Origin: a virus
Taxonomy: Duplodnaviria > Heunggongvirae > Uroviricota > Caudoviricetes
Reading direction: 5' to 3' (one strand)
Length of the DNA stretch: 40,668 bases
IMG/VR virus record: IMGVR_UViG_2534682060_000017
Coordinates: 1 to 40,668 of that record
A model generated the notes under the pieces. It saw only the letters and a list, made by a program, of their open reading frames with translations, made no database searches and was not told the DNA's origin. The position numbers were made by a program, and so were the translations under genes. Positions 4,945 through 25,436 of the stretch are shown piece by piece; the first letter of the stretch is position 1, and the number at the start of each line of letters is the position of its first letter.

Positions 4945-5391
4945 ATGGACCGGGATGATATTCTTGACAGAATTTTATATGGCTATTTTCTTGAGCAACT
5001 ATTTTCGGTAGCAACTGGTCGTCTCGATAAACTTCTCTCAGTGGTGAGTATTATCCTCGGTTCATCTGTCATTGGCGGATTCATTCCGGAAATTTCTGGC
5101 GTTTTTATTGTTGTGATCGCAACCGTCCAAACGATTTATGGATTCGGACAAAAGTCAGGTAACGCCATGAGAAAATCCGCAGAATATTTGCAGCTTTTTG
5201 ATGATGCAGAAAAATATTCTGATTCTGAATTGAAAATGCAGTTAAAAATTCTGGAAAAAACGGATGTTCATATTTGGTCATCACTTAAAGATATTGCGAT
5301 CTTAAAAACACAGATCAAAATAGGCGTTTCCATCGAACAACAAGAGAAGCTGCCCACAAAATCTAAATTGATGCGATTTCTTTGTAGTTAG
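4945..5391 (+). CDS. Putative superinfection exclusion membrane protein (SieB-like)
   Basis: 148-aa ORF on opposite strand inside the early-left region, as sieB is in lambda/Rac; long hydrophobic segment LSVVSIILGSSVIGGFIPEISGVFIVVIATV; AGGTGA RBS. Confidence 0.5.
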   Translation: MDRDDILDRILYGYFLEQLFSVATGRLDKLLSVVSIILGSSVIGGFIPEISGVFIVVIATVQTIYGFGQKSGNAMRKSAEYLQLFDDAEKYSDSELKMQLKILEKTDVHIWSSLKDIAILKTQIKIGVSIEQQEKLPTKSKLMRFLCS

Positions 5392-5444
5392 GAATATCCA
5401 GAATGTTAAAGAGCATGCCGGAGATTTATCCGTGTCCGGCGCAT

Positions 5445-5469
5445 GTTCTCCACCTTACCCGTGGAGAAC
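5445..5469. terminator. Hairpin between convergent genes (possible bidirectional terminator)
   Basis: 9-bp perfect stem GTTCTCCAC / GTGGAGAAC with 7-nt loop, between the SieB-like gene end and the minus-strand gene end. Confidence 0.4.
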
Positions 5470-5844
5470 TTAATGATTAATTGATATTTTATAGTTGGCT
5501 TCAACTTTCCCATCTGAAGTGGGATGCTTTAAATCACAGGAATTAATGTTGCACTCAGTAAAATGGTTTTTAAGGGGTTCTATTCGAATCCCTTTCTTTT
5601 CCATCAACAAACCAAACCCCTTGTTAATGATATCCATTAATTCCAGGAAGTATTTTTCAGAGGAATCATGCTTATCAGAGTGCTGCTTCTCTTCGTACAA
5701 CCCGATAAAGGCACGGCGCACGTTACCGGATATATTATCTATGGTTTCTTTTTCTACGGTACTCAGGTCAAGAGTCGCCAGTTGGGAACGAACTATATTC
5801 GCTGCCATTTCCTGGAATTGCATTGGTAAATCTTTAAATTCCAT
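5470..5844 (-). CDS. Hypothetical early-left protein
   Basis: 124-aa ORF; GAGG RBS 6 nt upstream of ATG at 5844; TGATG overlap with upstream gene stop. Confidence 0.5.
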   Translation of the reverse strand: MEFKDLPMQFQEMAANIVRSQLATLDLSTVEKETIDNISGNVRRAFIGLYEEKQHSDKHDSSEKYFLELMDIINKGFGLLMEKKGIRIEPLKNHFTECNINSCDLKHPTSDGKVEANYKISINH

Positions 5845-5855
5845 AGTCAACCTCA

Positions 5856-6008
5856 TCAGTCAGTATTTCTGGCTAACCAGCGACGCGCGCCAGATTCGGT
5901 TTTAAACGTTTTGCTTTTGGTATACGTCATCGCGGTGAATATGCCGTCCTGGTTGGGAAACACGCCGTATACCAGAGATTCGTTGTTGCCAAGATCGATA
6001 GTATCCAT
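5856..6008 (-). CDS. Small Rac-type early protein (YdaF/YdaG-like, 50 aa)
   Basis: ATG at 6008 preceded by GAGG (5-nt spacing); product MDTIDLGNNESLVYGVFPNQDG... resembles small proteins encoded next to racR in Rac prophage (from memory). Confidence 0.5.
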   Translation of the reverse strand: MDTIDLGNNESLVYGVFPNQDGIFTAMTYTKSKTFKTESGARRWLARNTD

Positions 6009-6188
6009 GTTGACCTCATGTCCCCTTAACGCCGGGGTAGCGGAACAAAAACCTGCTGCATAGTTATTAAAGTTGAACCCTGCCGTCATGTTCTTACGCC
6101 TCGGGCTGGCTACTTAACCCCTGACCACTGCCTGGTAACTCGAAGTATTGCCCTGCGTTCTGTGGGGCGGGGTGGGTGGTATGCTGGA

Positions 6189-6217
6189 ACTATAGGTAAT
6201 GCCTAATTGATTGTCAA
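6189..6217 (-). promoter_or_regulatory. Predicted leftward early promoter (pL analogue) with overlapping operator half-sites
   Basis: On minus strand: TTGACA, 17-bp spacer, TATAGT; spacer and flanks contain TTAGGC/GCCTAA motifs shared with the racR-ydaS intergenic operators. Confidence 0.45.
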
Positions 6218-6327
6218 TAGGCTATGCCTAATGTTTTGATCGTAACCTAATAGGTGATGGCGACAGCAGAAAGTGATGGGGGGGTTAAATAACGGAATCT
6301 AGGAGTTTTCCGTCAGACCATATAAGT

Positions 6328-6804
6328 TTAAGTTCCAGTTTTTGTGATGTTCTGGCTTTTCCGTTCAGATTCTAGAGCTTTCAGATACTTACCCACTTTC
6401 ATTTCCATCGCTGCTATGTAGGCGCGAACATCGTGGTCAACCCAATCTGGTTCTGTAGCATTTCCAGATAACAGGAAAGCTACAATCGCTCTTATTTCAT
6501 CAGAGGCTGCTTGATAAAGGTTGTTTATATCTAAAAGTTCACTTTTTGTATCTGAATTGGTGGGGGTTGGTATGGGGTATTCGTTAAGCCCCCAATGCTC
6601 TGGACCAACAACATCAGAAAAGAAACGCCATAATTCTGGAAGTTTATCTTTACTTATAGAGCCTTTCTTAATCCAGTCATAAATTGATGGTGGTTGGACT
6701 TTGAAGTGGCGTGCGACCTCCGCCTTTGATTTGACGGATCCCGATGCGATTTTTTTGTTAATGGCCTGCTCTATCGCTCGGCCTAAGTCTTTACCACTAA
6801 GCAT
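6328..6804 (-). CDS. racR: Rac prophage repressor RacR
   Basis: 158-aa product beginning MLSGKDLGRAIEQAINKK... recognised as RacR; AGGAG RBS; divergent from ydaS/ydaT. Confidence 0.85.
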   Translation of the reverse strand: MLSGKDLGRAIEQAINKKIASGSVKSKAEVARHFKVQPPSIYDWIKKGSISKDKLPELWRFFSDVVGPEHWGLNEYPIPTPTNSDTKSELLDINNLYQAASDEIRAIVAFLLSGNATEPDWVDHDVRAYIAAMEMKVGKYLKALESERKSQNITKTGT

Positions 6805-6927: not shown

Positions 6928-7224
6928 ATGAAAAAAGAGAACTATTCATTCAAGCAAGCTTGTGCTGTTGTCGGTGGGCAATCAGCAATGGCTAGGCTTT
7001 TAGGTGTATCACCTCCAAGCGTAAATCAATGGATCAAAGGGGTACGTCAATTGCCTGCCGAGAGATGTCCAGCAATTGAACGTGCAACAAGAGGTGAGGT
7101 TCTGTGCGAAGAACTTCGTCCTGATATTGACTGGTCATATTTACGACGTTCGGCATGTTGTTCGCAGAATATGTCAGTGAAGCAACTAAATGACAGTAAC
7201 AAATCCTCATTTGATCATACCTGA
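6928..7224 (+). CDS. ydaS: YdaS-like Cro/HTH-type protein of the RacR-controlled toxic module
   Basis: 98-aa product MKKENYSFKQACAVVGGQSAMARLLGVSPPSVNQWIKG... (HTH); GGAG RBS; divergent from racR. Confidence 0.8.
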   Translation: MKKENYSFKQACAVVGGQSAMARLLGVSPPSVNQWIKGVRQLPAERCPAIERATRGEVLCEELRPDIDWSYLRRSACCSQNMSVKQLNDSNKSSFDHT

Positions 7225-7246
7225 AACATCAAGAGGCAAATGATTC

Positions 7247-7672
7247 ATGAAAATCAAGCATGAACACATCCGCATGGCGATGAATGCCTGGGCGCGTCCT
7301 GATGGCGAAAAAGTTCCAGCAGCTGGAATAACCCAGGCTTATTTTGAGTTGGGTATGACGTTTCCTGAACTGTATGACGATAGCCATCCGGAAGCCCTGG
7401 CTCGCAATACCCAGAAAATTTTCCGCTGGGTAGAGAAAGACACTCCTGATGCGGTTAAAAAAATTCAGGCGTTGTTACCGGCTATCGAAAAAGCAATGCC
7501 ACCTCTGCTGGTGGCCCGGATGCGCAGCCACAGTTCAGTCTATTTTCGGGAGTTGGTGGAGACGCGGGAACGACTGGTGAGAGACGCTGATGATTTTGTC
7601 GCAGTGGCAATCGCCGGTTTCAATCAGATGAATCGTGGTGGCCCGGCAGGAAATGCTGTGGTGATGCACTAA
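7247..7672 (+). CDS. ydaT: YdaT-like protein
   Basis: 141-aa ORF immediately downstream of ydaS; AAGAGG RBS; matches Rac gene order racR-ydaS-ydaT. Confidence 0.8.
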   Translation: MKIKHEHIRMAMNAWARPDGEKVPAAGITQAYFELGMTFPELYDDSHPEALARNTQKIFRWVEKDTPDAVKKIQALLPAIEKAMPPLLVARMRSHSSVYFRELVETRERLVRDADDFVAVAIAGFNQMNRGGPAGNAVVMH

Positions 7673-7695
7673 AAGCACGGTGTTCGGGGTTTTTT

Positions 7696-8658
7696 ATGAG
7701 CAGCAAGCTTCATGGTCTTGTCTGGGAAGGGTGCGCCTTCACCGGCATGATCTTATCCAGGGTGGCAGTAATGGCTCGCCTTGCAGACTACAGCAATGAC
7801 GAAGGTGTGTCATGGCCTGCAGTGGAGACCATTCGTCGTCAGATTGGGGCAAAGAGTGAATCAACGGTTAAAGCGGCGATAGCGGAACTGGAAAAGAACG
7901 GCTGGCTGACGAAGGAGGAGCGTAAGGTCGGTGGGCGTAATGAAAGCAATATCTACCGCCTTAATGTGGAAAAACTCGAAGCAGCAGCTGAGGCGGCGCG
8001 TGAGGCATATAAACCGAAAAGAAAAATTAGCCCGGCAAAAAATGACCCGTTAACAGTTGACCAGTCAAATATTGCCCCCTCAACGATTGACCCGTCAAAT
8101 TTTGATGGTTCAACCGTTTGTAAAAAACAGCCGGTTAGGGGGGCGATGGTTGGCCCCGATCCGTCAGTATTAAAACCTGATCCGTCAGATAAAAGATCTT
8201 TTCGTCCGGAAGCTTCGCAACCGGACCCGCAGACGGCTGAACAGGACTTTTTAACCCGACATCCTGATGCGATTGTGTTTAGTGCAAAAAAACGTCAGTG
8301 GGGAAATCAGGAGGATTTGGCATGCGCACAGTGGATCTGGGGGCGAATCGTGAGTCTTTACGAACAGGCCGCCAGCGATGATGGCGAGATCACCCGACCG
8401 AAAGAACCCAACTGGACAGCATGGGCCAATGACGTGCGCATAATGCGGATGCTGGATGGCAGAACTCACAGACAAATCTGCGAAATGTTTGGTCGGGTAC
8501 AGCGGGATCCATTCTGGGTAAAAAACATCATGAGTCCGTCAAAACTTCGCGATAAATGGGATGAGCTGGTTATCCGTCTGGGGCGTTCGCCTGTACAGCG
8601 TTGTGTGAATCATATTTCTGAACCGGACACCGAAATTCCGCCAGGGTTCAGGGGATAA
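7696..8658 (+). CDS. Putative replication initiation / replisome organiser protein (winged-helix N-terminal domain, YdaU position)
   Basis: 320-aa ORF; N-terminal HTH-like region (..DEGVSWPAVETIRRQIGAKSESTVKAAIAELEKNGWL..) typical of phage replication initiators; position after immunity genes. Confidence 0.55.
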   Translation: MSSKLHGLVWEGCAFTGMILSRVAVMARLADYSNDEGVSWPAVETIRRQIGAKSESTVKAAIAELEKNGWLTKEERKVGGRNESNIYRLNVEKLEAAAEAAREAYKPKRKISPAKNDPLTVDQSNIAPSTIDPSNFDGSTVCKKQPVRGAMVGPDPSVLKPDPSDKRSFRPEASQPDPQTAEQDFLTRHPDAIVFSAKKRQWGNQEDLACAQWIWGRIVSLYEQAASDDGEITRPKEPNWTAWANDVRIMRMLDGRTHRQICEMFGRVQRDPFWVKNIMSPSKLRDKWDELVIRLGRSPVQRCVNHISEPDTEIPPGFRG

Positions 8659-13879: not shown

Positions 13880-13960
13880 AGATAGAGAAAAGCCCCAGTT
13901 AACATTACGCGTCCTGCAAGACGCTTAACATTAATCTGAGGCTCAATCTATGAACGGCAA
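13880..13960 (-). ncRNA. Predicted Sok-like antisense RNA region (approximate)
   Basis: Inference from hok/sok architecture: antisense RNA normally overlaps the hok leader/upstream ORF start; possible minus-strand promoter TTGCCT-17-TAACCT near 13955-13985; boundaries uncertain. Confidence 0.25.
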
Positions 13961-14006
13961 ATCTAGGTTAGCCTCTTACGTGCCGAAAGGCAAGGAGAAG
14001 CAGGCT

Positions 14007-14162
14007 ATGAAGCAGCAAAAGGCGATGTTAATCGCCCTGATCGTCATCTGTTTAACCGTCATTGTGACGGCACTGGTAACGAGGAAAGACCTCTGCGAGG
14101 TACGAATCCGAACCGGCCAGACGGAGGTCGCTGTCTTCACAGCTTACGAACCTGAGGAGTAA
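14007..14162 (+). CDS. hok: Hok/Gef family type I toxin
   Basis: Product MKQQKAMLIALIVICLTVIVTALVTRKDLCEVRIRTGQTEVAVFTAYEPEE closely resembles Hok/Gef; in-frame upstream ATG at 13950 gives a mok-like extension; mRNA leader resembles the R1 hok leader. Confidence 0.8.
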   Translation: MKQQKAMLIALIVICLTVIVTALVTRKDLCEVRIRTGQTEVAVFTAYEPEE

Positions 14163-20116: not shown

Positions 20117-20635
20117 TCCTCGATTAATATCTAAGCCAAGCAGGATGCTTGGAAGTTCTGATATATTCTTATCGTTTTTCGGTATTTAAAACTGATTTTC
20201 GCTGGTTGCGAAAGCACGTGGTCGGGCACTGCGTTCACACATGCAGGAGGGTGTGAAGCCAGCTTTTTTGTGTGTATTCAGATGGCGTTCTGATTCTATA
20301 ACGAGTTACGTGGACATCAGGGATGGAGAGAATAGGAACGCCATCTTAATACATTTTCCCCGTTTATTTGATATATCTTCCGGATAAGGGATTAGGTCTG
20401 GTTTTTTATGTCATTCAATAACGCTCTTCTATACTGTATACAATACTTTATCCTGGCAGTGTGTTTAAAACCTGAACTTATCCTTTGTTTCGTTTATAGA
20501 CAGAAGGGTTAATATCGACTTATCATCAGCAGGATGGCAACAGATGTGTAAGCAGCTGGTCACCAGTTATACTTCAGTGGTACTTCTGAGTGCTTCTCTC
20601 CGTGAAATGATTATCATCCAGATGGCAGGAGTAGA

Positions 20636-20914
20636 GTGAATATTGATGATATTTCCAGGTGCTCCAGCTTGTTGCAGCGTATTGAGGATGTTAATGCTGA
20701 ACGAGCCAGGGCCTTTAGTCGTTTGACAGTTATATTTTCTACCCCTGATCGCCTTTCAGGAAAGAACATTGTTTTATTAAACAGTGATGCCATCCATAAG
20801 GTTTTTGAAGAGTTCATGGCTGCTAATTCAGAATTGCTGGCTCTTGTTGAGGAATACAACGAGATAGCCAGCCGTGTCGGTATGGATGAATTCAACGTCA
20901 TACTTCGTGGATAA
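20636..20914 (+). CDS. Hypothetical protein
   Basis: 92-aa ORF, GTG start with AGGAG RBS 4 nt upstream; followed by terminator hairpin. Confidence 0.35.
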   Translation: MNIDDISRCSSLLQRIEDVNAERARAFSRLTVIFSTPDRLSGKNIVLLNSDAIHKVFEEFMAANSELLALVEEYNEIASRVGMDEFNVILRG

Positions 20915-20937
20915 AAACATGCTTCATATTTTCTGTT

Positions 20938-20961
20938 AGCTCGCTACTGCGAGCTTTTTTG
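20938..20961 (+). terminator. Rho-independent terminator
   Basis: AGCTCGC-TACT-GCGAGCT stem-loop followed by T6. Confidence 0.5.
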
Positions 20962-21272
20962 TATCTGAGCCACATCAGGCGCACATCAAAAACACAGAGC
21001 CTTTCAGGGCGGGGAGGGGGCTCTTGCCGTTACACCGTAATGCAAAATAACAGCATACAAAAGGTATCGGTGATGGTTGTTATTGGTGTGGTTTATTAAA
21101 AAAGTGTAAGAAAATTATGAGCGTTGTAGTTGAACAAAATGGTGAAATTGTATGAGCTCGGCATAATGAAAGTTCTGAAGGTATTGCCTGCACACGCTGT
21201 GTAAAGGACGGCACGCAACTGCGACTCGTTGCCGTCCTTGAGGACGCATTTACTCAGGCTAAAGGCGAGTTG

Positions 21273-21608
21273 CTATGCTGGGATGACGGAAATGGAGTGC
21301 CGAATAGCTGCACTTCCGCCTCCTAAATCAATTGTAATATTCCAGTAACCTGAATGCGGTACATGAAGGTGGGCCGGTAATCTCTGAAAAAAACCGCCAC
21401 CACCGTGATGATGAAAGCTTCTTGCGTTGCGGTAGTTATTAAAGTTTGTATCTGTCATCAGCAAAATATTGCACTGATGAGAGCAGTCAACCACTACCGT
21501 ATCTCCTGCATTTAAATACATTCTTTTATGTAAAAACTGCATGTGATTTCCCTGAACAGAGGTAATCAGCCATCCCTCTTTCTCTATGATGAGCCAGCGT
21601 CCCACCAC
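21273..21608 (-). CDS. Hypothetical protein (uncertain)
   Basis: 111-aa minus-strand ORF between cargo and lysis genes; His/Gly-rich; no clear RBS. Confidence 0.3.
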   Translation of the reverse strand: MVGRWLIIEKEGWLITSVQGNHMQFLHKRMYLNAGDTVVVDCSHQCNILLMTDTNFNNYRNARSFHHHGGGGFFQRLPAHLHVPHSGYWNITIDLGGGSAAIRHSISVIPA

Positions 21609-21741
21609 TGGCGGGCTGAATGCTTAACATATCCAGGGTTCAGAAAACGTTAAACCCTGATAAATATCCATATCTTCAAACGTTAATAAAATGTCAGTTA
21701 CGGGGCCGCTGATGGTCCTTTTTATTTACAGGAGAATAAAT

Positions 21742-22131
21742 ATGTCTGAACCCTTATCCGGTTCCAGCACTGCTGTGGCGCTCGGCGGGGCGACGGTATT
21801 CGGGCTGTTTACCGGGACGGATTTCGGGATTGTGTTTGGCGCGTTTGCCGGGGCGTTGTTTGTGGCCACGATGCCACAGGTGATTTCTGTCTGGCGTGTG
21901 GCGGCGCATTTTCTGGTGTCGTTCATTGTTGGCGTGCTGGGGGCGGATGTCCTTGCGTCCTGGCTGGTCGAAAAATTGAATCTCCACAGCACATCTCTCG
22001 ACGCGCTTTGTGCGGTACTGGTATCGGTGGTGTCGGTGAAGATTCTCTCATTCATCCACCAGCAGGATATCGCATCGCTGGTATCCGGGCTGTTCTCCCG
22101 TCTGCGGGGTGGAGGCGGTAATGTTAAGTAA
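21742..22131 (+). CDS. Putative holin
   Basis: ATG 21742 with GGAG RBS; product has hydrophobic helices and charged C-terminus; directly upstream of endolysin. Confidence 0.6.
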   Translation: MSEPLSGSSTAVALGGATVFGLFTGTDFGIVFGAFAGALFVATMPQVISVWRVAAHFLVSFIVGVLGADVLASWLVEKLNLHSTSLDALCAVLVSVVSVKILSFIHQQDIASLVSGLFSRLRGGGGNVK

Positions 22132-22399
22132 CCTTCCCGGATTACTGAATGTGGTGTTAAGCACGGTTATCGTGCTGACGCTCTTTTTTTATCGTCGTGG
22201 TGAGTCGAGACATAAACCGCTGATGTCGTGGCTGGCCTGGCTGCTGATGCTGCTTTATGCCTTTGCGCCGCTTTGTTATCTGTGTGGTCGCTTTCCACCC
22301 GGTAACTGGCTGGTCGTCCTGATTAACCTGGTGTTCTGCGTGCTGGTGATACGAGCACGCGGGAACGTATCAAAAATCCTTGTATTACGAAGGCGCTGA
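22121..22399 (+). CDS. Second holin/antiholin-like membrane protein
   Basis: ATG 22121 with GGAGG RBS; 92 aa, three predicted TM helices, basic C-terminus; overlaps neighbours. Confidence 0.5.
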   Translation: MLSNLPGLLNVVLSTVIVLTLFFYRRGESRHKPLMSWLAWLLMLLYAFAPLCYLCGRFPPGNWLVVLINLVFCVLVIRARGNVSKILVLRRR

Positions 22400-22400
22400 T

Positions 22401-22946
22401 ATGAAGTCGAAAGATGAAATTTTTGACGAAATTCTGGGAAAAGAGGGCGGTTACGTCAATCACCCGGATGATAAAGGTGGTCCGACTAAATGGGGCATCA
22501 CTGAAAAAGTTGCCCGTGCACACGGTTATCAGGGCGATATGCGTGACCTGACGCGTGGGCAGGCGCTGGAAATACTCGAGGCGGACTACTGGTACGGACC
22601 ACGATTCGACCAGGTTGAGGACCTGTCTCCGGATATTGCCGCAGAGTTGTGCGATACGGGCGTGAACATGGGGCCAACTGTGGCGTCCAGAATGCTTCAG
22701 CGCTGGCTGAACGTTTTCAACCTGCGCGGGAAACTCTATCCGGATATGGATGCTGATGGACGCATCGGGCCGCGTACTCTTAATGCATTACGGGCATATC
22801 TGAAAAATCGCAGCAGGGATGGTGAACTGGTACTGGTGAAAGCCCTGAACTGTACGCAGGGCGAGCGTTATCTGGAGCTGGCAGAGAAACGCGAGGCCAA
22901 TGAGTCGTTTGTCTATGGCTGGATGAAAGAGCGCGTGGTGGTTTAA
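22401..22946 (+). CDS. Endolysin, glycoside hydrolase family 108-like with peptidoglycan-binding domain
   Basis: N-terminal EILGKEGGYVNHPDDKGGPTKWGIT signature of GH108 lysozymes; ATG overlaps upstream gene. Confidence 0.85.
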   Translation: MKSKDEIFDEILGKEGGYVNHPDDKGGPTKWGITEKVARAHGYQGDMRDLTRGQALEILEADYWYGPRFDQVEDLSPDIAAELCDTGVNMGPTVASRMLQRWLNVFNLRGKLYPDMDADGRIGPRTLNALRAYLKNRSRDGELVLVKALNCTQGERYLELAEKREANESFVYGWMKERVVV

Positions 22947-23040
22947 AAACTGACACTGAAGTGCTGAACACCCTCAACTCATGCAGGCTCTTTTCTGGGG
23001 CTACGATGAGCGAAAGTAAGGGGCATAGCATCAGATAGCA

Positions 23041-23080
23041 AAAACCCCGGCTGCGGTAACAGTCCGGGGTTTTCTGTTTC
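23041..23080 (+). terminator. Rho-independent terminator after lysis cassette
   Basis: AACCCCGG ... CCGGGGTT stem followed by TTTCTGTTTC. Confidence 0.55.
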
Positions 23081-23142
23081 TGGCCCTGGGTAAGGCAAAG
23101 GAGAACATGAGGAATTATAAACTAATTCTGTTGAGGTTGACT

Positions 23143-23289
23143 ATGAAAAACGGCCTTGAATTGAAAGCGCCTGTAACTGATGACATCAGCAGAGCGGTGG
23201 CTTTTGCCATTAAGTGGGTGGCGGTCGGTATCGCTGTGTCTCCGATGCTGTATGGGATGGCAAAATTGCTCATTGCTGTGAAATCGTAA
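23143..23289 (+). CDS. Small membrane peptide (49 aa)
   Basis: GAGG RBS 6 nt upstream; hydrophobic segment FAIKWVAVGIAVSPMLYGMAKLLIAV. Confidence 0.35.
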   Translation: MKNGLELKAPVTDDISRAVAFAIKWVAVGIAVSPMLYGMAKLLIAVKS

Positions 23290-23306
23290 GTGGGGCAGGG
23301 GTAAAT

Positions 23307-23441
23307 ATGTCAGATAGCATTATAAAACTGGCGCGAATTCTCTGTGTGGTTGTTGGCCTTTCATTTTCAGCAATGTTGGTTGCCATTTTCATTTCCACCG
23401 CCTGGCGAGTATTGAGCTTATCCGGATTGATTGGTGGATAG
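23307..23441 (+). CDS. Small membrane peptide (44 aa)
   Basis: AGGGGT RBS; single TM-like segment ILCVVVGLSFSAMLVAIFIS. Confidence 0.35.
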   Translation: MSDSIIKLARILCVVVGLSFSAMLVAIFISTAWRVLSLSGLIGG

Positions 23442-23445
23442 TGAG

Positions 23446-23628
23446 ATGAAGCGAAAACACTGGACACACAGAATGCCGCGAACGGCGGCGAAATGGGCAC
23501 TGGTAGCGATACTGGTGCCTTTTTTCCTGGTGGGATGCGTCAGCCTGGATAAGGCGCGCCAGCTTTTCGATACAGCTTCTCAGGTCTGTGAAATTGTCGA
23601 CGGTGTTCGGCAGTGTATGCAGAACTGA
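23446..23628 (+). CDS. Putative small lipoprotein (lipobox LVGC)
   Basis: Signal peptide ..WALVAILVPFFLVGC with lipobox cysteine, two further Cys in mature part; possible spanin or exclusion lipoprotein. Confidence 0.5.
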   Translation: MKRKHWTHRMPRTAAKWALVAILVPFFLVGCVSLDKARQLFDTASQVCEIVDGVRQCMQN

Positions 23629-23715
23629 TCGCCTGTAAGAGCAGAATATTGTTGAATCTAAATTTACTTTGAACAGTGGCCCGGATGGAAAGGGCATCTA
23701 AATAGGAGCAGAAAA

Positions 23716-23925
23716 ATGTTAACTGTAAAAGTCATGTCTCAAAATGGTGGGGAAGAGATCCATTGCGGGCGTAGCATTGGCTATCATCCTGAGCAGCGGA
23801 GTATTGCCGTATCGGGAAAGGATGGGAAAGTCATTCTGAAAGATGGAGATATTGCTTATGTAATGAACCAAAACGCTCAAATAATATCTGTTTATCGGCC
23901 CAATAATAGTCAGAAAAACATTTGA
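23716..23925 (+). CDS. Hypothetical small protein
   Basis: 69-aa ORF with AGGAG-like RBS. Confidence 0.4.
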   Translation: MLTVKVMSQNGGEEIHCGRSIGYHPEQRSIAVSGKDGKVILKDGDIAYVMNQNAQIISVYRPNNSQKNI

Positions 23926-24048
23926 ATTTCGCAAGGCCAAAGTTCAGTGGTGATCGTTATCAACTAATTGAAATAACAAGCTTATGTATGTGTAATTGGT
24001 GATATAGCATGTTAATGCTGAATATCAGCGTCAACATGGAGTTATACA

Positions 24049-24264
24049 ATGGTTTTTAAACACTATTACGTGAACAAAAATGCTCAGAGCAATGGCGATC
24101 ATGAGGTGCATGCTGAGGAATGTTCATATCTTCCTGCTGTAGCTAACCGCGATTACCTTGGTTACTATAGTGATTGTTCTTCGGCGGTAACAGAGGCAAA
24201 GGCCAAAGGATATTCCCGGGTGAATGGTTGCTATTGGTGTGCCAATAAGTGCCACACGTCTTAA
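24049..24264 (+). CDS. Hypothetical Cys/His-rich small protein
   Basis: 71-aa ORF with HEVHAEEC and CYWCANKCH motifs suggesting metal binding; followed by terminator. Confidence 0.4.
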   Translation: MVFKHYYVNKNAQSNGDHEVHAEECSYLPAVANRDYLGYYSDCSSAVTEAKAKGYSRVNGCYWCANKCHTS

Positions 24265-24284
24265 TCAATTGTCAATAAACCATA

Positions 24285-24306
24285 AAGGCCGCTCTGCGGC
24301 CTTTTT
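24285..24306 (+). terminator. Rho-independent terminator
   Basis: AAGGCCGC-TCT-GCGGCCTT followed by T5. Confidence 0.55.
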
Positions 24307-24373
24307 CATGTTAAAAAAGATTGCGGCATTACAGCAGCCCTTCACTCTAAGGGGCTGCTGTAATGTGAGAAAT

Positions 24374-24406
24374 AAAAAACCGGCCCAGCTACACAGAACC
24401 GGCCGG
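24374..24406 (-). terminator. Minus-strand terminator-like hairpin
   Basis: CCGGCC ... GGCCGG stem preceded on plus strand by A6 (T-run on minus strand). Confidence 0.4.
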
Positions 24407-24495
24407 CGAAGACCGCCAATACCACCCATGCATTGATGCAACATACTAATGACAATAGCCGCTATTGATGTAAATGCAATGTTATGCATCGACGA

Positions 24496-24537
24496 AAATA
24501 AAAAACCGGCAGGGGAAATCCATTGAAGACTTGCCGG
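24496..24537 (-). terminator. Minus-strand terminator-like hairpin
   Basis: CCGGCA ... TGCCGG stem preceded on plus strand by AAATAAAAAA. Confidence 0.4.
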
Positions 24538-24699
24538 TGGCAAAAGTTGCCAATGCTTTTATAACCGTAGTCACAGAGTTACGAAGTGCAACACCGAATG
24601 CTGCTGGTATATGGATGAATGGCGTTTCAATGATTTTCATCAATTTATTCATCAGCAATGGTGATAATCACTCTCATTTGTGCGGGTCCTTCCGGTGGG

Positions 24700-24780
24700 G
24701 TGGCCTGCCACGGGGCGGGAGCGTCGCGGAAAAAGGCTAGTTTTTGCATTTCCATGGCGGCGGCAGTATGTTTGGTAATT
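24700..24780. other. Candidate cos site region (cosN/cosB-like)
   Basis: GC-rich CGGGGCGGGAGCGTCGCGG followed by AT-rich tract about 190 bp upstream of the Nu1-like start, mirroring lambda cos spacing; recalled from lambda, not aligned. Confidence 0.3.
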
Positions 24781-24908
24781 TATTGATAATTAAAAGCTAT
24801 TTCTCTTTTCACCTGTACAATATTTTTTTCTCCCTGTCATTAGACCAGTTTGCAATTAATTGAAATATATAAATAAACATGATTTTCACCTGCCAGATGG
24901 AGTTGCTT

Positions 24909-25436
24909 ATGTCAAATGTGAGCGGGATCGGTGATGCTTATTACTGGAGTGTTTTTAAAATCGCCGAGGCCTTTGGGCTTCACCGGGACACAGTAAAAAA
25001 ACGGCTCCTCGCGGCCAACACTCCTGTGGCTGCGACTGTCAGGGGGAACCCCGTTTACGCCCTGCAGCATGTCGGGCCCGCCCTGTTTAGTGTGAAGCAT
25101 GAGGCAGCAGACTCTGTTCATGATCCATCCCGTATGGAGCCGAAAGAGAGAAAGGACTGGTACCAGTCTGAAAATGAAAGGATCAAGCTGGAAAAGGAGC
25201 AGCGAAAACTCATCCCAGTTGATGAAGTAGTCATCGTCTATTCGTCCATGAGAAAGGCTGTCGTCCAGGTTCTGGAGACAATTCCGGATGTTCTTGAACG
25301 CGATTGCGCCCTGACTCCTCAGGCCGTCGGCGTTGTACAGCAGGCCATTGATGACCTGCGATACACTCTTCAGGAAAAATCCTACGAGGCTTGTGCTGCT
25401 GAATTAATTCCTGATGAGGAAGGAGAGAGTCTCTAG
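24909..25436 (+). CDS. Terminase small subunit (Nu1-like)
   Basis: ATG 24909 with GGAG RBS; N-terminal HTH-like region and acidic C-terminus as in lambda Nu1; directly upstream of large terminase. Confidence 0.8.
   Translation: MSNVSGIGDAYYWSVFKIAEAFGLHRDTVKKRLLAANTPVAATVRGNPVYALQHVGPALFSVKHEAADSVHDPSRMEPKERKDWYQSENERIKLEKEQRKLIPVDEVVIVYSSMRKAVVQVLETIPDVLERDCALTPQAVGVVQQAIDDLRYTLQEKSYEACAAELIPDEEGESL

What the first reader, a model, noticed from the sequence alone, without database searches (positions are those of the whole stretch)
21742..23628. Lysis cassette without recognisable Rz/Rz1 spanins, followed by three small membrane/lipoprotein genes
Two holin-like genes and a GH108 endolysin are followed by a terminator, not by Rz/Rz1-like genes. 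Downstream lie two peptides of 44-49 aa with single hydrophobic segments and a 60-aa lipoprotein (lipobox LVGC), each with a plausible RBS. They may be a non-canonical spanin equivalent, or exclusion/lysogenic-conversion lipoproteins in the pre-cos moron position.
Basis: partly seen in the sequence, partly recalled or inferred. Interest (0 to 1): 0.4.

Follow-up and report, generated by a model that had tools for sequence, protein, structure and literature searches.

The report
Spanin-slot lipoprotein in phage lysis cassette
This prophage's cell-bursting gene cluster lacks the usual two-protein outer-membrane breaker (Rz/Rz1) and instead has a tiny conserved outer-membrane lipoprotein in that position, which probably does that job without a phage partner; the two small membrane-protein genes in front of it are a separate add-on module.

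Summary
The cluster is two holins (PF16931, PF05449), a GH108 endolysin, a terminator, two small one-helix membrane proteins (sm1, sm2) and a 60-aa lipoprotein (lpp). There is no Rz/Rz1 anywhere in the window.

The three small genes are not one unit.

- sm1 and sm2, with the terminator, form a portable module. It also sits between lysozyme R and canonical Rz/Rz1 in Stx and lambdoid phages, so it is not a spanin substitute.
- lpp is the conserved last gene of this cassette type. In 44 unique loci it starts 14 nt after the endolysin stop. In a Yersinia prophage the two genes overlap (ATGA).
- Relatives of lpp at 44-64% identity follow M15, GH108 or CHAP endolysins and two different holin types.
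- In 86 unique holin-seeded loci, 71 have lpp, 6 have a canonical two-component spanin in the same slot, and none has both.
- No i-spanin partner is conserved.

Kongari et al. (2018) had already listed the phiP27 homologue as an "o-spanin", by computation only. The i-spanin they paired with it is unique to phiP27.

Best reading (about 0.55): lpp is a stand-alone outer-membrane lysis lipoprotein expressed late, and sm1/sm2 are accessory. No experiment has tested this. Interest is moderate.

The parts
21702..21725 (+). Terminator-like hairpin plus T-run directly upstream of the hol1 ribosome-binding site
   Evidence: Found by the scan. Hairpin, T-run and RBS are conserved across hol1 loci, while the upstream reading frame is not. 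The 146-aa long form of hol1 is therefore not supported.
21742..22131 (+). hol1: putative holin, 129 aa, 3-4 TMDs
   Evidence: PF16931 E=1e-22; phrog_198 holin E=3.5e-41; TMD profile.
22121..22399 (+). hol2: putative 3-TMD holin or antiholin, 92 aa, overlapping the end of hol1 by 11 nt
   Evidence: PF05449 E=8e-21; phrog_217 holin.
22401..22946 (+). Soluble GH108 endolysin with a PG_binding_3 domain, 181 aa, no signal or SAR segment
   Evidence: PF05838 and PF09374; phrog_315 endolysin. In sister cassettes it is swapped for an M15 peptidase.
23041..23078 (+). Intrinsic terminator that forms the left edge of the portable sm1(-sm2) module
   Evidence: dG -22.3 kcal/mol, z -3.4. Conserved in front of sm1 in the R...Rz context (PhiR12_3), in Cronobacter and before the sm1 variant.
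23107..23289 (+). sm1: 60-aa small inner-membrane protein with a basic N-terminal part and a C-terminal TMD (about residues 27-48)
   Evidence: phrog_1115, unknown function, E=1.8e-32; pN/pS 0.25; TMD. Occurs before lpp or before Rz.
23307..23441 (+). sm2: 44-aa single-TMD protein
   Evidence: phrog_4906, unknown function; pN/pS 0.15. Homologues in 276 phage records, immediately upstream of Rz in Stx phages and mostly unannotated.
23446..23628 (+). lpp: 60-aa prolipoprotein (lipobox LVGC, Cys31). Mature 30-aa helical peptide with a conserved C-x8-C. Occupies the spanin slot.
   Evidence: Lipobox and h-region; invariant G30, C31, C48, C57; residue +2 is never Asp; synteny and exclusivity with Rz/Rz1; phrog_7528, unknown function.
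23495..23526 (+). Terminator-like hairpin (11 bp) plus T6 inside the lpp signal-peptide codons
   Evidence: dG -18.4 kcal/mol, z -4.1. Pairing kept in 98-100% of 90 unique sequences. Third-codon-position diversity is about 0.04 over hairpin codons 17-26, my average of the per-codon values. The script's bins gave 0.098 for codons 17-27 (inflated by codon 27) and 0.19 for codons 28-60. Nearly invariant at nucleotide level even in lpp relatives of 44-64% protein identity.

Best explanation
The region is a late-transcribed phiP27-type lysis cassette plus one inserted module.

Shown:
- hol1 and hol2 are holin-family membrane proteins, and the GH108 enzyme is a soluble, holin-dependent endolysin.
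- The 60-aa gene at 23446-23628 encodes a lipoprotein precursor that is the conserved terminal gene of this cassette type.
- It sits where Rz/Rz1 sits in a minority of otherwise equivalent cassettes, and it never co-occurs with them.
- sm1 and sm2, with the terminator in front of them, are a separate portable module. It inserts between the endolysin and whichever outer-membrane-step gene follows (lpp or Rz/Rz1).

Inferred:
- lpp is processed by Lgt/LspA/Lnt and sorted by Lol to the inner leaflet of the outer membrane, because residue +2 is Val or Ala and never Asp.
- lpp carries out the third step of lysis, breaching the outer membrane, without a phage-encoded inner-membrane partner.
- Its mature part is 30 aa, helical, net charge -1, and has two conserved Cys. 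That is far too short to span an intact periplasm.
- The most likely mode is therefore action only after the endolysin has removed the wall and turgor presses the inner membrane against the outer membrane. It would work as a membrane-destabilising or fusogenic lipopeptide, or in the manner of a colicin-release protein.
- Expression is confined to Q-antiterminated late transcription. Terminators lie before hol1, before sm1 and inside lpp.
- sm1 and sm2 are dispensable accessory inner-membrane proteins, possibly tuning lysis timing. Their function is not established.
For: Cassette identity:
-.

lpp is a real, selected lipoprotein gene:
- pN/pS is 0.26.
- G30, C31, C48 and C57 are invariant, and a C-x8-C motif is kept in relatives down to 44% identity.

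lpp sits in the position of a lysis gene:
- In 44 unique loci lpp starts 14 nt after the M15 stop. In 4 unique loci GH108 and lpp overlap.
- A Yersinia enterocolitica prophage has hol1-hol2-GH108-lpp with every junction overlapping.
- A Cronobacter prophage has the window's exact six-gene order.

The link holds at greater divergence:
- lpp relatives follow PF05106 (lambda-S-type) holin plus M15 or CHAP endolysin, and PF16931+PF05449 plus M15 or GH108. None of these loci has a spanin.

Mutual exclusivity with spanins:
- In 86 unique holin-seeded loci there are 71 intact lpp, 5 lambda-type Rz/Rz1, 1 other overlapped two-component spanin, and none with both. Hypergeometric P=1e-5, not corrected for relatedness.
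- In L066 Rz starts 15 nt after the M15 stop, against 14 nt for lpp elsewhere, so it is the same slot.
- Among all 330 fetched loci there are 279 with lpp, 12 with a spanin, and 0 with both.
- The one phage found with S-R-Rz plus lpp (GER2) has lpp only as a frameshifted remnant.

No partner is encoded:
- lpp is the only credible lipoprotein ORF in the window, and there is no i-spanin-like ORF.
- The 64-aa ORF called the phiP27 i-spanin lies in a spacer found only in phiP27.

Not tied to receptor or packaging:
- phiP27 has a contractile Mu-like tail, while the window has a lambda-like tail.
- At least four terminase contexts occur.

Late-only expression:
- There is no sigma70-like site on the + strand in 20900-24950.
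- Terminators are documented.

sm1/sm2 as a separate module:
-.
Against: - No experiment exists for lpp, sm1 or sm2. The functional claim rests on gene position and exclusivity.
- Most sampled loci are closely related E. coli prophages, so the counts are not independent.
- About 7% of cassettes have neither lpp nor a spanin: loci with an LT-II toxin insert, plus L031, L061 and L193. The step may therefore be dispensable or these may be defective prophages. Three further loci carry disrupted lpp.
- A 30-residue anionic peptide has no precedent as a sole outer-membrane disruptor.
- The AlphaFold model is low confidence (pLDDT 68).
- The strongest conservation in lpp is in the signal peptide. It coincides with a nucleotide-level hairpin, so part of the 'protein' conservation may be an RNA/DNA constraint.
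- The promoter scan is a crude consensus search.
- The post-endolysin, pre-terminase region is also a known moron hot spot. LT-II, KilA-N and Ant genes occur there.
Confidence: 0.55

Rival explanations
1. True two-component spanin: lpp is the o-spanin, and a small adjacent TMD protein is its i-spanin. Here that would be sm1 or sm2; in phiP27 it would be the 64-aa ORF listed by Kongari et al. 2018. The two would form a minimal periplasm-spanning complex.
For: - Kongari et al. 2018 (PMC6139136), Tables S2-S4, list PhiP27 as a 'separated' two-component spanin. The i-spanin is at 20348-20542 (64 aa) and the o-spanin at 20706-20861 (51 aa).
- In the window, sm2 ends 4 nt before lpp.
- sm1-type genes ending in 'RWW' have their stop 1 nt from the lpp start.
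- lpp has conserved periplasmic Cys residues, as spanins do.
Against: - 44 unique loci have lpp 14 nt after the endolysin with no TMD ORF between them. The Yersinia cassette has overlapping GH108 and lpp genes.
- The same sm modules also precede complete Rz/Rz1 pairs, which need no extra i-spanin.
- The phiP27 64-aa ORF has a TTG start and lies in a spacer unique to phiP27.
- The parts of sm1 and sm2 outside the membrane are at most about 13 aa and mature lpp is 30 aa. From general knowledge of a periplasm about 20-25 nm wide, this cannot bridge it.
- Kongari's own table predicts no coiled coil.
Confidence: 0.1
2. Morons: lpp, and/or sm1 and sm2, are lysogenic-conversion or superinfection-exclusion proteins that merely sit in the moron-rich region before the terminase. 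Lambda Bor, the Cor/Llp receptor-blocking lipoproteins and Sie-type small membrane proteins would be the models. On this reading the cassette has no dedicated outer-membrane step.
For: - The same slot holds obvious cargo in relatives: LT-II toxin, KilA-N and Ant.
- Bor lies just after Rz in a Stx phage.
- All three proteins fall in PHROGs of unknown function, with no hit in lysis families.
- A GER2 lpp remnant lies downstream of a full S-R-Rz set.
- sm1 and sm2 are dispensable for the cassette.
Against: - There is no promoter-like site on the + strand, and terminators stand in front of sm1 and inside lpp. Morons normally bring their own promoter.
- lpp is translationally coupled to the endolysin.
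- lpp is strictly exclusive with spanins.
- lpp stays with the lysis genes while tail type (myovirus against siphovirus) and terminase type change. This argues against a receptor-specific blocker.
- There are no PADLOC hits.
Confidence: 0.2
3. lpp acts in lysis but not as the outer-membrane disruptor. It could, for example, regulate holin timing or endolysin access. A related variant is that the conserved element is mainly the intragenic terminator hairpin, with the peptide secondary.
For: - The strongest conservation is over the signal-peptide codons that form the hairpin plus T6. This stretch is nearly invariant at nucleotide level even in 44-64% relatives.
- There are precedents for extra small membrane lysis factors: Lcc6 in LambdaSo (10.1101/2024.01.23.576932), and P2 LysA from general knowledge.
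Against: - The mature part is also under selection: C48 and C57 are invariant, a motif is conserved in distant relatives, and overall pN/pS is 0.26.
- A regulator would not be expected to be exclusive with spanins.
- A lipobox whose +2 residue is never Asp points to the outer membrane, away from the holin.
Confidence: 0.1

Closest known systems
Lambda Rz/Rz1 two-component spanin
   Same: - Same position, immediately after the endolysin in a late lysis operon.
- The outer-membrane component is a small lipoprotein with periplasmic Cys.
- Related P27-type cassettes carry Rz/Rz1 in exactly the slot lpp occupies.
   Different: - No i-spanin gene, and no embedded or overlapped architecture.
- No sequence similarity.
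- Mature lpp is 30 aa, helical and has no Pro. Mature Rz1 is 40 aa with 10 Pro and is unstructured (PMC6139136).
- lpp cannot span the periplasm.
PhiP27 'separated two-component spanin' entry in Kongari et al. 2018 (PMC6139136, Tables S2-S4)
   Same: Its o-spanin (phiP27 20706-20861) is the 95%-identical homologue of the window's lpp. The idea that this lipoprotein is spanin-related is therefore already in the literature, as a purely computational call.
   Different: - The i-spanin paired with it is not conserved.
- It is absent from the window and from more than 100 unique lpp loci.
- The family therefore does not fit the two-component definition.
Unimolecular spanin (T1 gp11)
   Same: A single gene product with an N-terminal lipoprotein signal acts at the outer-membrane step.
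   Different: u-spanins have a C-terminal TMD anchoring them in the inner membrane and a periplasm-spanning body (PMC6139136). lpp ends 29 residues after the lipidated Cys and has no second hydrophobic segment.
Disruptin (phiKT gp28)
   Same: A small, helical, partner-less peptide that replaces spanins. It shows that one-component outer-membrane disruption exists (10.1101/515445).
   Different: gp28 is a 56-aa cationic amphipathic peptide without a lipoprotein signal. Mature lpp has net charge -1 and is lipid-anchored.
Colicin lysis / bacteriocin-release lipoproteins (Pfam Lysis_col) and entericidins
   Same: From general knowledge, these are very small lipoproteins (mature part about 27-33 aa) that permeabilise the envelope on their own. 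BRPs have unusually important signal peptides. lpp has a 30-aa mature part and its signal peptide is its most conserved segment.
   Different: - No Pfam hit to any such family at E<=1.
- Phage late operon, not a plasmid SOS operon.
- Dependence on OMPLA is untested.
Small accessory membrane lysis proteins (LambdaSo Lcc6; P2 LysA), as comparators for sm1 and sm2
   Same: Short TMD proteins associated with lysis in addition to holin, endolysin and spanin. Lcc6 is a 65-aa TM protein required at the holin step.
   Different: - No homology was established.
- Lcc6 is encoded far from the cassette.
- sm1 and sm2 are dispensable for many cassettes, and no phenotype is known.

Membership tests
Two-component spanin (i-spanin + o-spanin) | An outer-membrane lipoprotein subunit encoded in or next to the lysis cassette | tested here: met
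   Lipobox LVGC, Cys31, a basic n-region and a 13-residue h-region. Residue +2 is never Asp across the family. The gene lies directly after the endolysin.
Two-component spanin (i-spanin + o-spanin) | A type II inner-membrane subunit (N-terminal TMD plus a long, largely coiled-coil periplasmic domain) encoded adjacent to, overlapping or embedding the o-spanin gene | tested here: not met
   There is no such ORF in the window. In 44 unique loci nothing lies between the endolysin and lpp. sm1 and sm2 have at most about 13 aa outside the membrane. The phiP27 64-aa ORF is not conserved.
Two-component spanin (i-spanin + o-spanin) | Sequence similarity to a known spanin family (lambda Rz/Rz1) | tested here: not met
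   tblastn of Rz, Rz1 and a second spanin pair against the window gave a best E of 0.1. Pfam, NCBIfam and PHROGs give no spanin family.
Two-component spanin (i-spanin + o-spanin) | Periplasmic Cys residues available for disulfide linkage | tested here: met
   C48 and C57 are invariant, with a C-x8-C motif kept in distant relatives. Whether the bonds are intra- or intermolecular cannot be tested here.
Two-component spanin (i-spanin + o-spanin) | Function: required for outer-membrane disruption (spherical-cell arrest when absent) | not testable with these tools
   Needs complementation in lambda Rz-am Rz1-am, or a deletion followed by induction.
Unimolecular spanin (T1 gp11 type) | [quoted passage not shown] | tested here: not met
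   The only hydrophobic segment is the signal peptide (residues 13-37). The protein ends at residue 60.
Disruptin (phiKT gp28 type) | Cationic amphipathic peptide without a secretion or lipidation signal | tested here: not met
   Mature lpp has net charge -1 and is moderately amphipathic (muH 0.53 over 18 aa). It carries a lipobox signal. gp28 properties are from 10.1101/515445.
Colicin lysis protein / BRP (Pfam Lysis_col) and entericidin | Match to the family profile | tested here: not met
   No Pfam family matched lpp at E<=1.
Colicin lysis protein / BRP (Pfam Lysis_col) and entericidin | Very small lipoprotein (mature part about 30 aa) that permeabilises the envelope alone, via OMPLA | tested here: inconclusive
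   Size and lipobox fit. Activity and OMPLA dependence cannot be tested here.
Phage holins PF16931 / PF05449 and GH108 endolysin | Profile match above the curated cut-off, and clustered order holin-holin-endolysin | tested here: met
   81, 74.2 and 93.4/93.5 bits against cut-offs of 26.4, 25.4 and 21.2/24.6. The genes overlap or abut.
Moron (autonomous promoter-gene-terminator insert expressed in the lysogen) | Own promoter upstream and a terminator downstream of the gene(s) | tested here: not met
   No sigma70-like site on the + strand in 20900-24950 (a crude scan). The module's terminator is upstream of sm1, leaving only 28 nt before the start codon.
Receptor-blocking or exclusion lipoproteins (Cor, Llp) and Bor | Co-inheritance with a given tail/receptor-binding module, or homology to the family | tested here: not met
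   lpp occurs with the phiP27 contractile tail and with a lambda-like J tail, and with several terminase types. No family match.

The most novel reading that the evidence does not exclude
lpp founds a further class of phage outer-membrane-disruption protein, alongside two-component spanins, unimolecular spanins and the disruptin.

- It would be a 30-residue lipid-anchored helical peptide acting with no inner-membrane partner.
- It would presumably act only after wall degradation brings the two membranes into contact.
- The family would be found in about 6% of complete E. coli genomes and in phiP27-type Stx2e phages.
- A conserved intragenic terminator would keep it silent outside Q-antiterminated late transcription.
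Probability: 0.4. Interest if true: 0.7.

Novelty: new variant of a known kind. Interest (0 to 1): 0.5.

Why it matters
How phages without spanins breach the outer membrane is an open question. Kongari et al. 2018 found no spanin in about 13% of genomes, and so far only the phiKT disruptin has been shown to fill the gap.

This family offers a directly testable candidate in E. coli:
- It is one 183-nt gene.
- It is present in 314 of 5,426 complete E. coli genomes.
- It occurs in the Stx2e phage phiP27 and in ETEC/STEC prophages.
- It can be dropped into the standard lambda Rz-am Rz1-am complementation assay.

If it works alone, it would define the smallest known outer-membrane lysis factor. It would also correct a database entry that files it as half of a two-component spanin.

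There is a practical annotation gain:
- lpp is unannotated, or called in the wrong frame, in phiP27 RefSeq.
- sm2 is unannotated in most of 276 mostly Stx phage records.

If lpp proves to be a moron instead, the region is ordinary.

Tried and rejected
- **Window identity.** I first assumed the window was identical to NZ_CP076272.1 and used its annotation. Later megablast showed only about 98% identity, with two replaced segments. Annotation coordinates are valid only from about 15.1 kb onward. The absence of spanins was therefore re-tested on the window itself.
- **Species-wide scan.** The genome-contig scan with the holin alignment gave only 2 loci, so no species-wide survey was possible.
- **Family libraries.** Pfam, NCBIfam and PADLOC give nothing for sm1, sm2 or lpp. 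PHROGs gives only unknown-function families.
- **Structure.** The AlphaFold2 model of lpp is one long helix at pLDDT 68. That is too weak and too small for a meaningful fold search, so none was run.
- **Profile search.** A search of 1.84 billion representatives found only 23 cluster representatives and no link to a named family. An alignment of the divergent members was too variable for a locus scan, so a single protein was used instead.
- **phiP27 L32.** It is not the lipoprotein but an out-of-frame ORF.
- **phiP27 64-aa 'i-spanin'.** Rejected as a conserved partner.
- **Long form of hol1.** The 146-aa form starting at 21691 was rejected, because the upstream frame is not conserved.
- **Literature searches.** Two were uninformative: (term too broad).
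- **Dropped idea.** That hol1 or hol2 supplies a periplasm-spanning arm. Both are almost entirely membrane-embedded.


Full report
**1. What is there**

The window is a lambdoid E. coli prophage.
- Its 22900-23720 stretch is 100% identical to strain E21845/O/A.
- The window as a whole is only about 98% identical to that record, and two early-region segments are replaced.
- The cited PGAP table therefore matches window coordinates only from about 15.1 kb onward.

| Gene | Coordinates | Evidence |
|---|---|---|
| hol1 | 21742-22131 | PF16931, E=1e-22 |
| hol2 | 22121-22399 | PF05449, E=8e-21 |
| Endolysin | 22401-22946 | GH108 plus PG_binding_3; soluble |

All of these score above the curated cut-offs, and the PHROGs assignments are holin, holin and endolysin.

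- A strong terminator follows at 23041-23078 (dG -22.3 kcal/mol, z -3.4).
- Three small ORFs come next: sm1 (23107-23289), sm2 (23307-23441) and lpp (23446-23628; lipobox LVGC, Cys31).
- Across the unique sequences collected from related loci, all three are under purifying selection. Their pN/pS values are 0.25, 0.15 and 0.26, against 0.26-0.43 for the holins. They are real genes.
- None matches a named family in Pfam, NCBIfam or PADLOC. PHROGs places them in unknown-function families.

**2. Is a spanin hidden somewhere?**

No.
- A six-frame lipobox scan finds lpp as the only credible lipoprotein ORF in 40.7 kb.
- tblastn with lambda-type Rz and Rz1 and a second spanin pair gives only noise.
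- A scan for ORFs of 70-260 aa with one N-terminal TMD returns nothing like an i-spanin. The one real hit is a Hok/Gef toxin at 13950-14162.

**3. The three small genes are two units**

*sm1 and sm2*
- DNA covering window 23065-23449, which holds the terminator's 3' half, sm1 and sm2, recurs at about 84% identity in roughly 900 E. coli genomes.
- In PhiR12-type phages it lies between lysozyme R and Rz.
- sm2 homologues occur in 276 phage records, mostly Stx phages. The two contexts inspected (BP-4795 and vB_EcoS_P27) have the order S-R-ant-sm2-Rz, and the ORF is usually unannotated.
- The terminator belongs to this module. It is conserved in front of sm1 in the R...Rz context, in Cronobacter and in front of a divergent sm1 variant.
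- Small TMD genes of this kind are coupled to whichever gene follows. An sm1 variant ending 'RWW' has its stop 1 nt before lpp. A 45-aa TMD ORF ending 'RWW' has its stop 1 nt before Rz.

*lpp*
- lpp appears without sm1 or sm2, immediately after the endolysin, in many phiP27-type cassettes.

**4. lpp is the conserved terminal gene of the cassette**

I collected loci from IMG/VR seeded with hol2 and with lpp, then mapped them by tblastn.

| Class (86 unique holin-seeded loci with at least 2.3 kb downstream) | Loci |
|---|---|
| Intact lpp | 71 |
| Disrupted lpp | 3 |
| Lambda-type Rz/Rz1 | 5 |
| Different overlapped two-component spanin | 1 |
| LT-II toxin insert, neither gene | 3 |
| Neither gene | 3 |
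| Both lpp and a spanin | 0 |

- If presence were independent, the chance of no overlap would be 1e-5, but the loci are related, so that figure overstates the case.
- Over all 330 fetched loci there are 279 with lpp, 12 with a spanin and none with both.
- The slot is the same. In 44 unique loci lpp starts 14 nt after the M15 stop. In L066, Rz starts 15 nt after it.
- All 79 lpp-seeded loci that had upstream DNA show hol1-hol2-endolysin upstream.

Beyond E. coli:
- A Yersinia enterocolitica prophage has hol1-hol2-GH108-lpp with every junction overlapping.
- A Cronobacter prophage reproduces the window's six-gene order.

More divergent family members were found with a profile search of 1.84 billion representatives. 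The search returned only 23 cluster representatives, so the family is narrow.
- These members keep the lipobox and a C-x8-C motif.
- They again sit directly after the endolysin, in cassettes built from a lambda-S-type holin (PF05106) with an M15 or CHAP endolysin, or from the PF16931+PF05449 pair with M15 or GH108.
- None of these cassettes has a spanin.

The one phage found with a full S-R-Rz set and lpp (GER2) has only a frameshifted lpp remnant.

lpp is not tied to a virion type.
- phiP27 has a contractile Mu-like tail, whereas the window has a lambda-like tail.
- Several terminase types follow lpp.

**5. Prior knowledge**

- Kongari et al. 2018 (PMC6139136) list PhiP27 in their supplementary tables as a 'separated' two-component spanin.
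- Their o-spanin (20706-20861, 51 aa, mature 30 aa, 83% helix) is the homologue of lpp. Their i-spanin is a 64-aa ORF at 20348-20542 with no coiled coil.
- That ORF starts with TTG and lies in a spacer found only in phiP27.
- In the phiP27 RefSeq record the lipoprotein itself is not annotated. 'L32' is an out-of-frame ORF over the same DNA.
- The spanin link for this lipoprotein is therefore not new, but the two-component assignment does not survive comparison. I found no experimental work on it.

**6. Mechanism**

*Shown*
- lpp has a lipoprotein signal, and residue +2 is never Asp.
- The mature part is 30 aa, with no Pro and net charge -1. It is moderately amphipathic and predicted helical, though AlphaFold confidence is low at pLDDT 68.
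- Two Cys residues are invariant.

*Inferred*
- lpp is sorted to the outer membrane.
- It acts at the last lysis step without a phage partner, because no phage gene other than lpp itself is shared by all of its contexts.
- A 30-residue tether cannot cross an intact periplasm. I therefore favour action after the wall is degraded and the inner membrane is pressed against the outer membrane. This would also give the dependence on endolysin that spanins have.
- A colicin-release-protein-like route through OMPLA is an alternative. lpp is not a member of that family by profile.

*Expression looks late-only*
- There is no promoter-like site on the + strand between 20900 and 24950 (a crude scan).
- Terminators lie before hol1, before sm1 and inside lpp.

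*sm1 and sm2*
- They are dispensable companions of the outer-membrane-step gene.
- A role in lysis timing is possible, with Lcc6 as a precedent. Nothing here demonstrates it.

**7. Rivals**

- **Two-component spanin with sm1 or sm2 as the i-spanin.** Contradicted by the lpp-only cassettes, by the same modules preceding complete Rz/Rz1 pairs, and by geometry.
- **Moron or exclusion proteins.** This fits the moron-rich location (LT-II, KilA-N, Ant and Bor occur nearby). It fits poorly with the translational coupling, the terminators, the exclusivity with spanins and the independence from tail type.
- **Regulator, or an RNA-only element.** Possible, but the mature peptide is itself conserved.
- My split is roughly 0.55 / 0.10 / 0.20 / 0.10, with the remainder unassigned.

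**8. Caveats**

- Everything functional rests on gene position.
- The sample is dominated by related E. coli prophages.
- About 7% of cassettes have neither gene.
- The signal-peptide conservation overlaps a nucleotide-level element.

**9. Verdict**

- The feature is a new variant of a known kind, namely a lipoprotein in the spanin slot that lacks the defining second subunit. It has a prior computational label in one phage.
- Interest is moderate, because it turns an open question into a one-gene complementation experiment in E. coli.

Noticed in passing
window 23495-23526 (inside lpp, codons 17-27): A textbook terminator-like hairpin (11 bp, dG -18.4 kcal/mol, z -4.1) followed by T6 lies inside the signal-peptide codons. 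Pairing is kept in 98-100% of 90 unique sequences, and synonymous variation is suppressed there. The 32-nt element is almost invariant even in lpp genes of only 44-64% protein identity sitting in unrelated cassettes. It could be a Q-dependent safety terminator, an mRNA 3'-end element or a recombination joint.
   Followed up: partly
window 13950-14162 (+): A Hok/Gef family type I toxin ORF (PF01848, E=3e-23) lies in an early-region segment. That segment differs from the otherwise 98%-identical E21845/O/A prophage.
   Followed up: partly
phiP27 NC_003356.1 20630-20861 (L001 5515-5746): RefSeq 'L32' (20630-20785) is an out-of-frame ORF. The conserved lipoprotein gene (20679-20861) is not annotated. 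The 64-aa ORF that Kongari et al. list as the phiP27 i-spanin (20348-20542, TTG start) lies in a spacer found only in phiP27.
   Followed up: yes
L250 (BP-4795) 1986-2132; L251 (vB_EcoS_P27) 1980-2132; 276 phage records in all: A 44-50 aa single-TMD ORF homologous to sm2 sits immediately upstream of Rz in the two Stx-phage contexts inspected, both S-R-ant-sm2-Rz. It is unannotated in most of the listed records. Its function is unknown.
   Followed up: partly
L085 and L087 (about 6950-8170), L189, L010 (SerU-LTIIb 5219-6368): In related prophages the slot after the GH108 endolysin holds LT-II type heat-labile enterotoxin A and B genes. These loci have neither lpp nor Rz/Rz1 within about 2.6 kb, so they may be lysis-defective or may rely on something else.
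   Followed up: partly
window 21702-21725; hol1 upstream region in 80+ loci: A hairpin plus T-run directly abutting the hol1 RBS is conserved across loci, while the upstream reading frame is not. The 144-146 aa 'long holin' annotation (phiP27 L28; window ORF from 21691) is therefore probably wrong. A terminator guards the entry to the cassette.
   Followed up: partly
L255 (Cronobacter malonaticus prophage) 1489-2217: A Pertussis_S1/Scabin-like ADP-ribosyltransferase gene lies just upstream of a hol1-hol2-GH108-sm1-sm2-lpp cassette with the same gene order as the window's.
   Followed up: no
window 23716-23925 and 24049-24264, with a bidirectional terminator at 24284-24304: Two small soluble proteins of unknown function travel with lpp in many loci, upstream of the terminase. 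They are phrog_3909 and the Cys-rich phrog_4298. A strong bidirectional hairpin closes the unit.
   Followed up: no
L176 about 5822-6227 (822-1227 from the hol2 start): One P27-type cassette carries a different overlapped two-component spanin in the lpp slot: an 89-aa N-terminal-TMD protein plus a 71-aa lipoprotein. This shows that the slot accepts several spanin families.
   Followed up: partly
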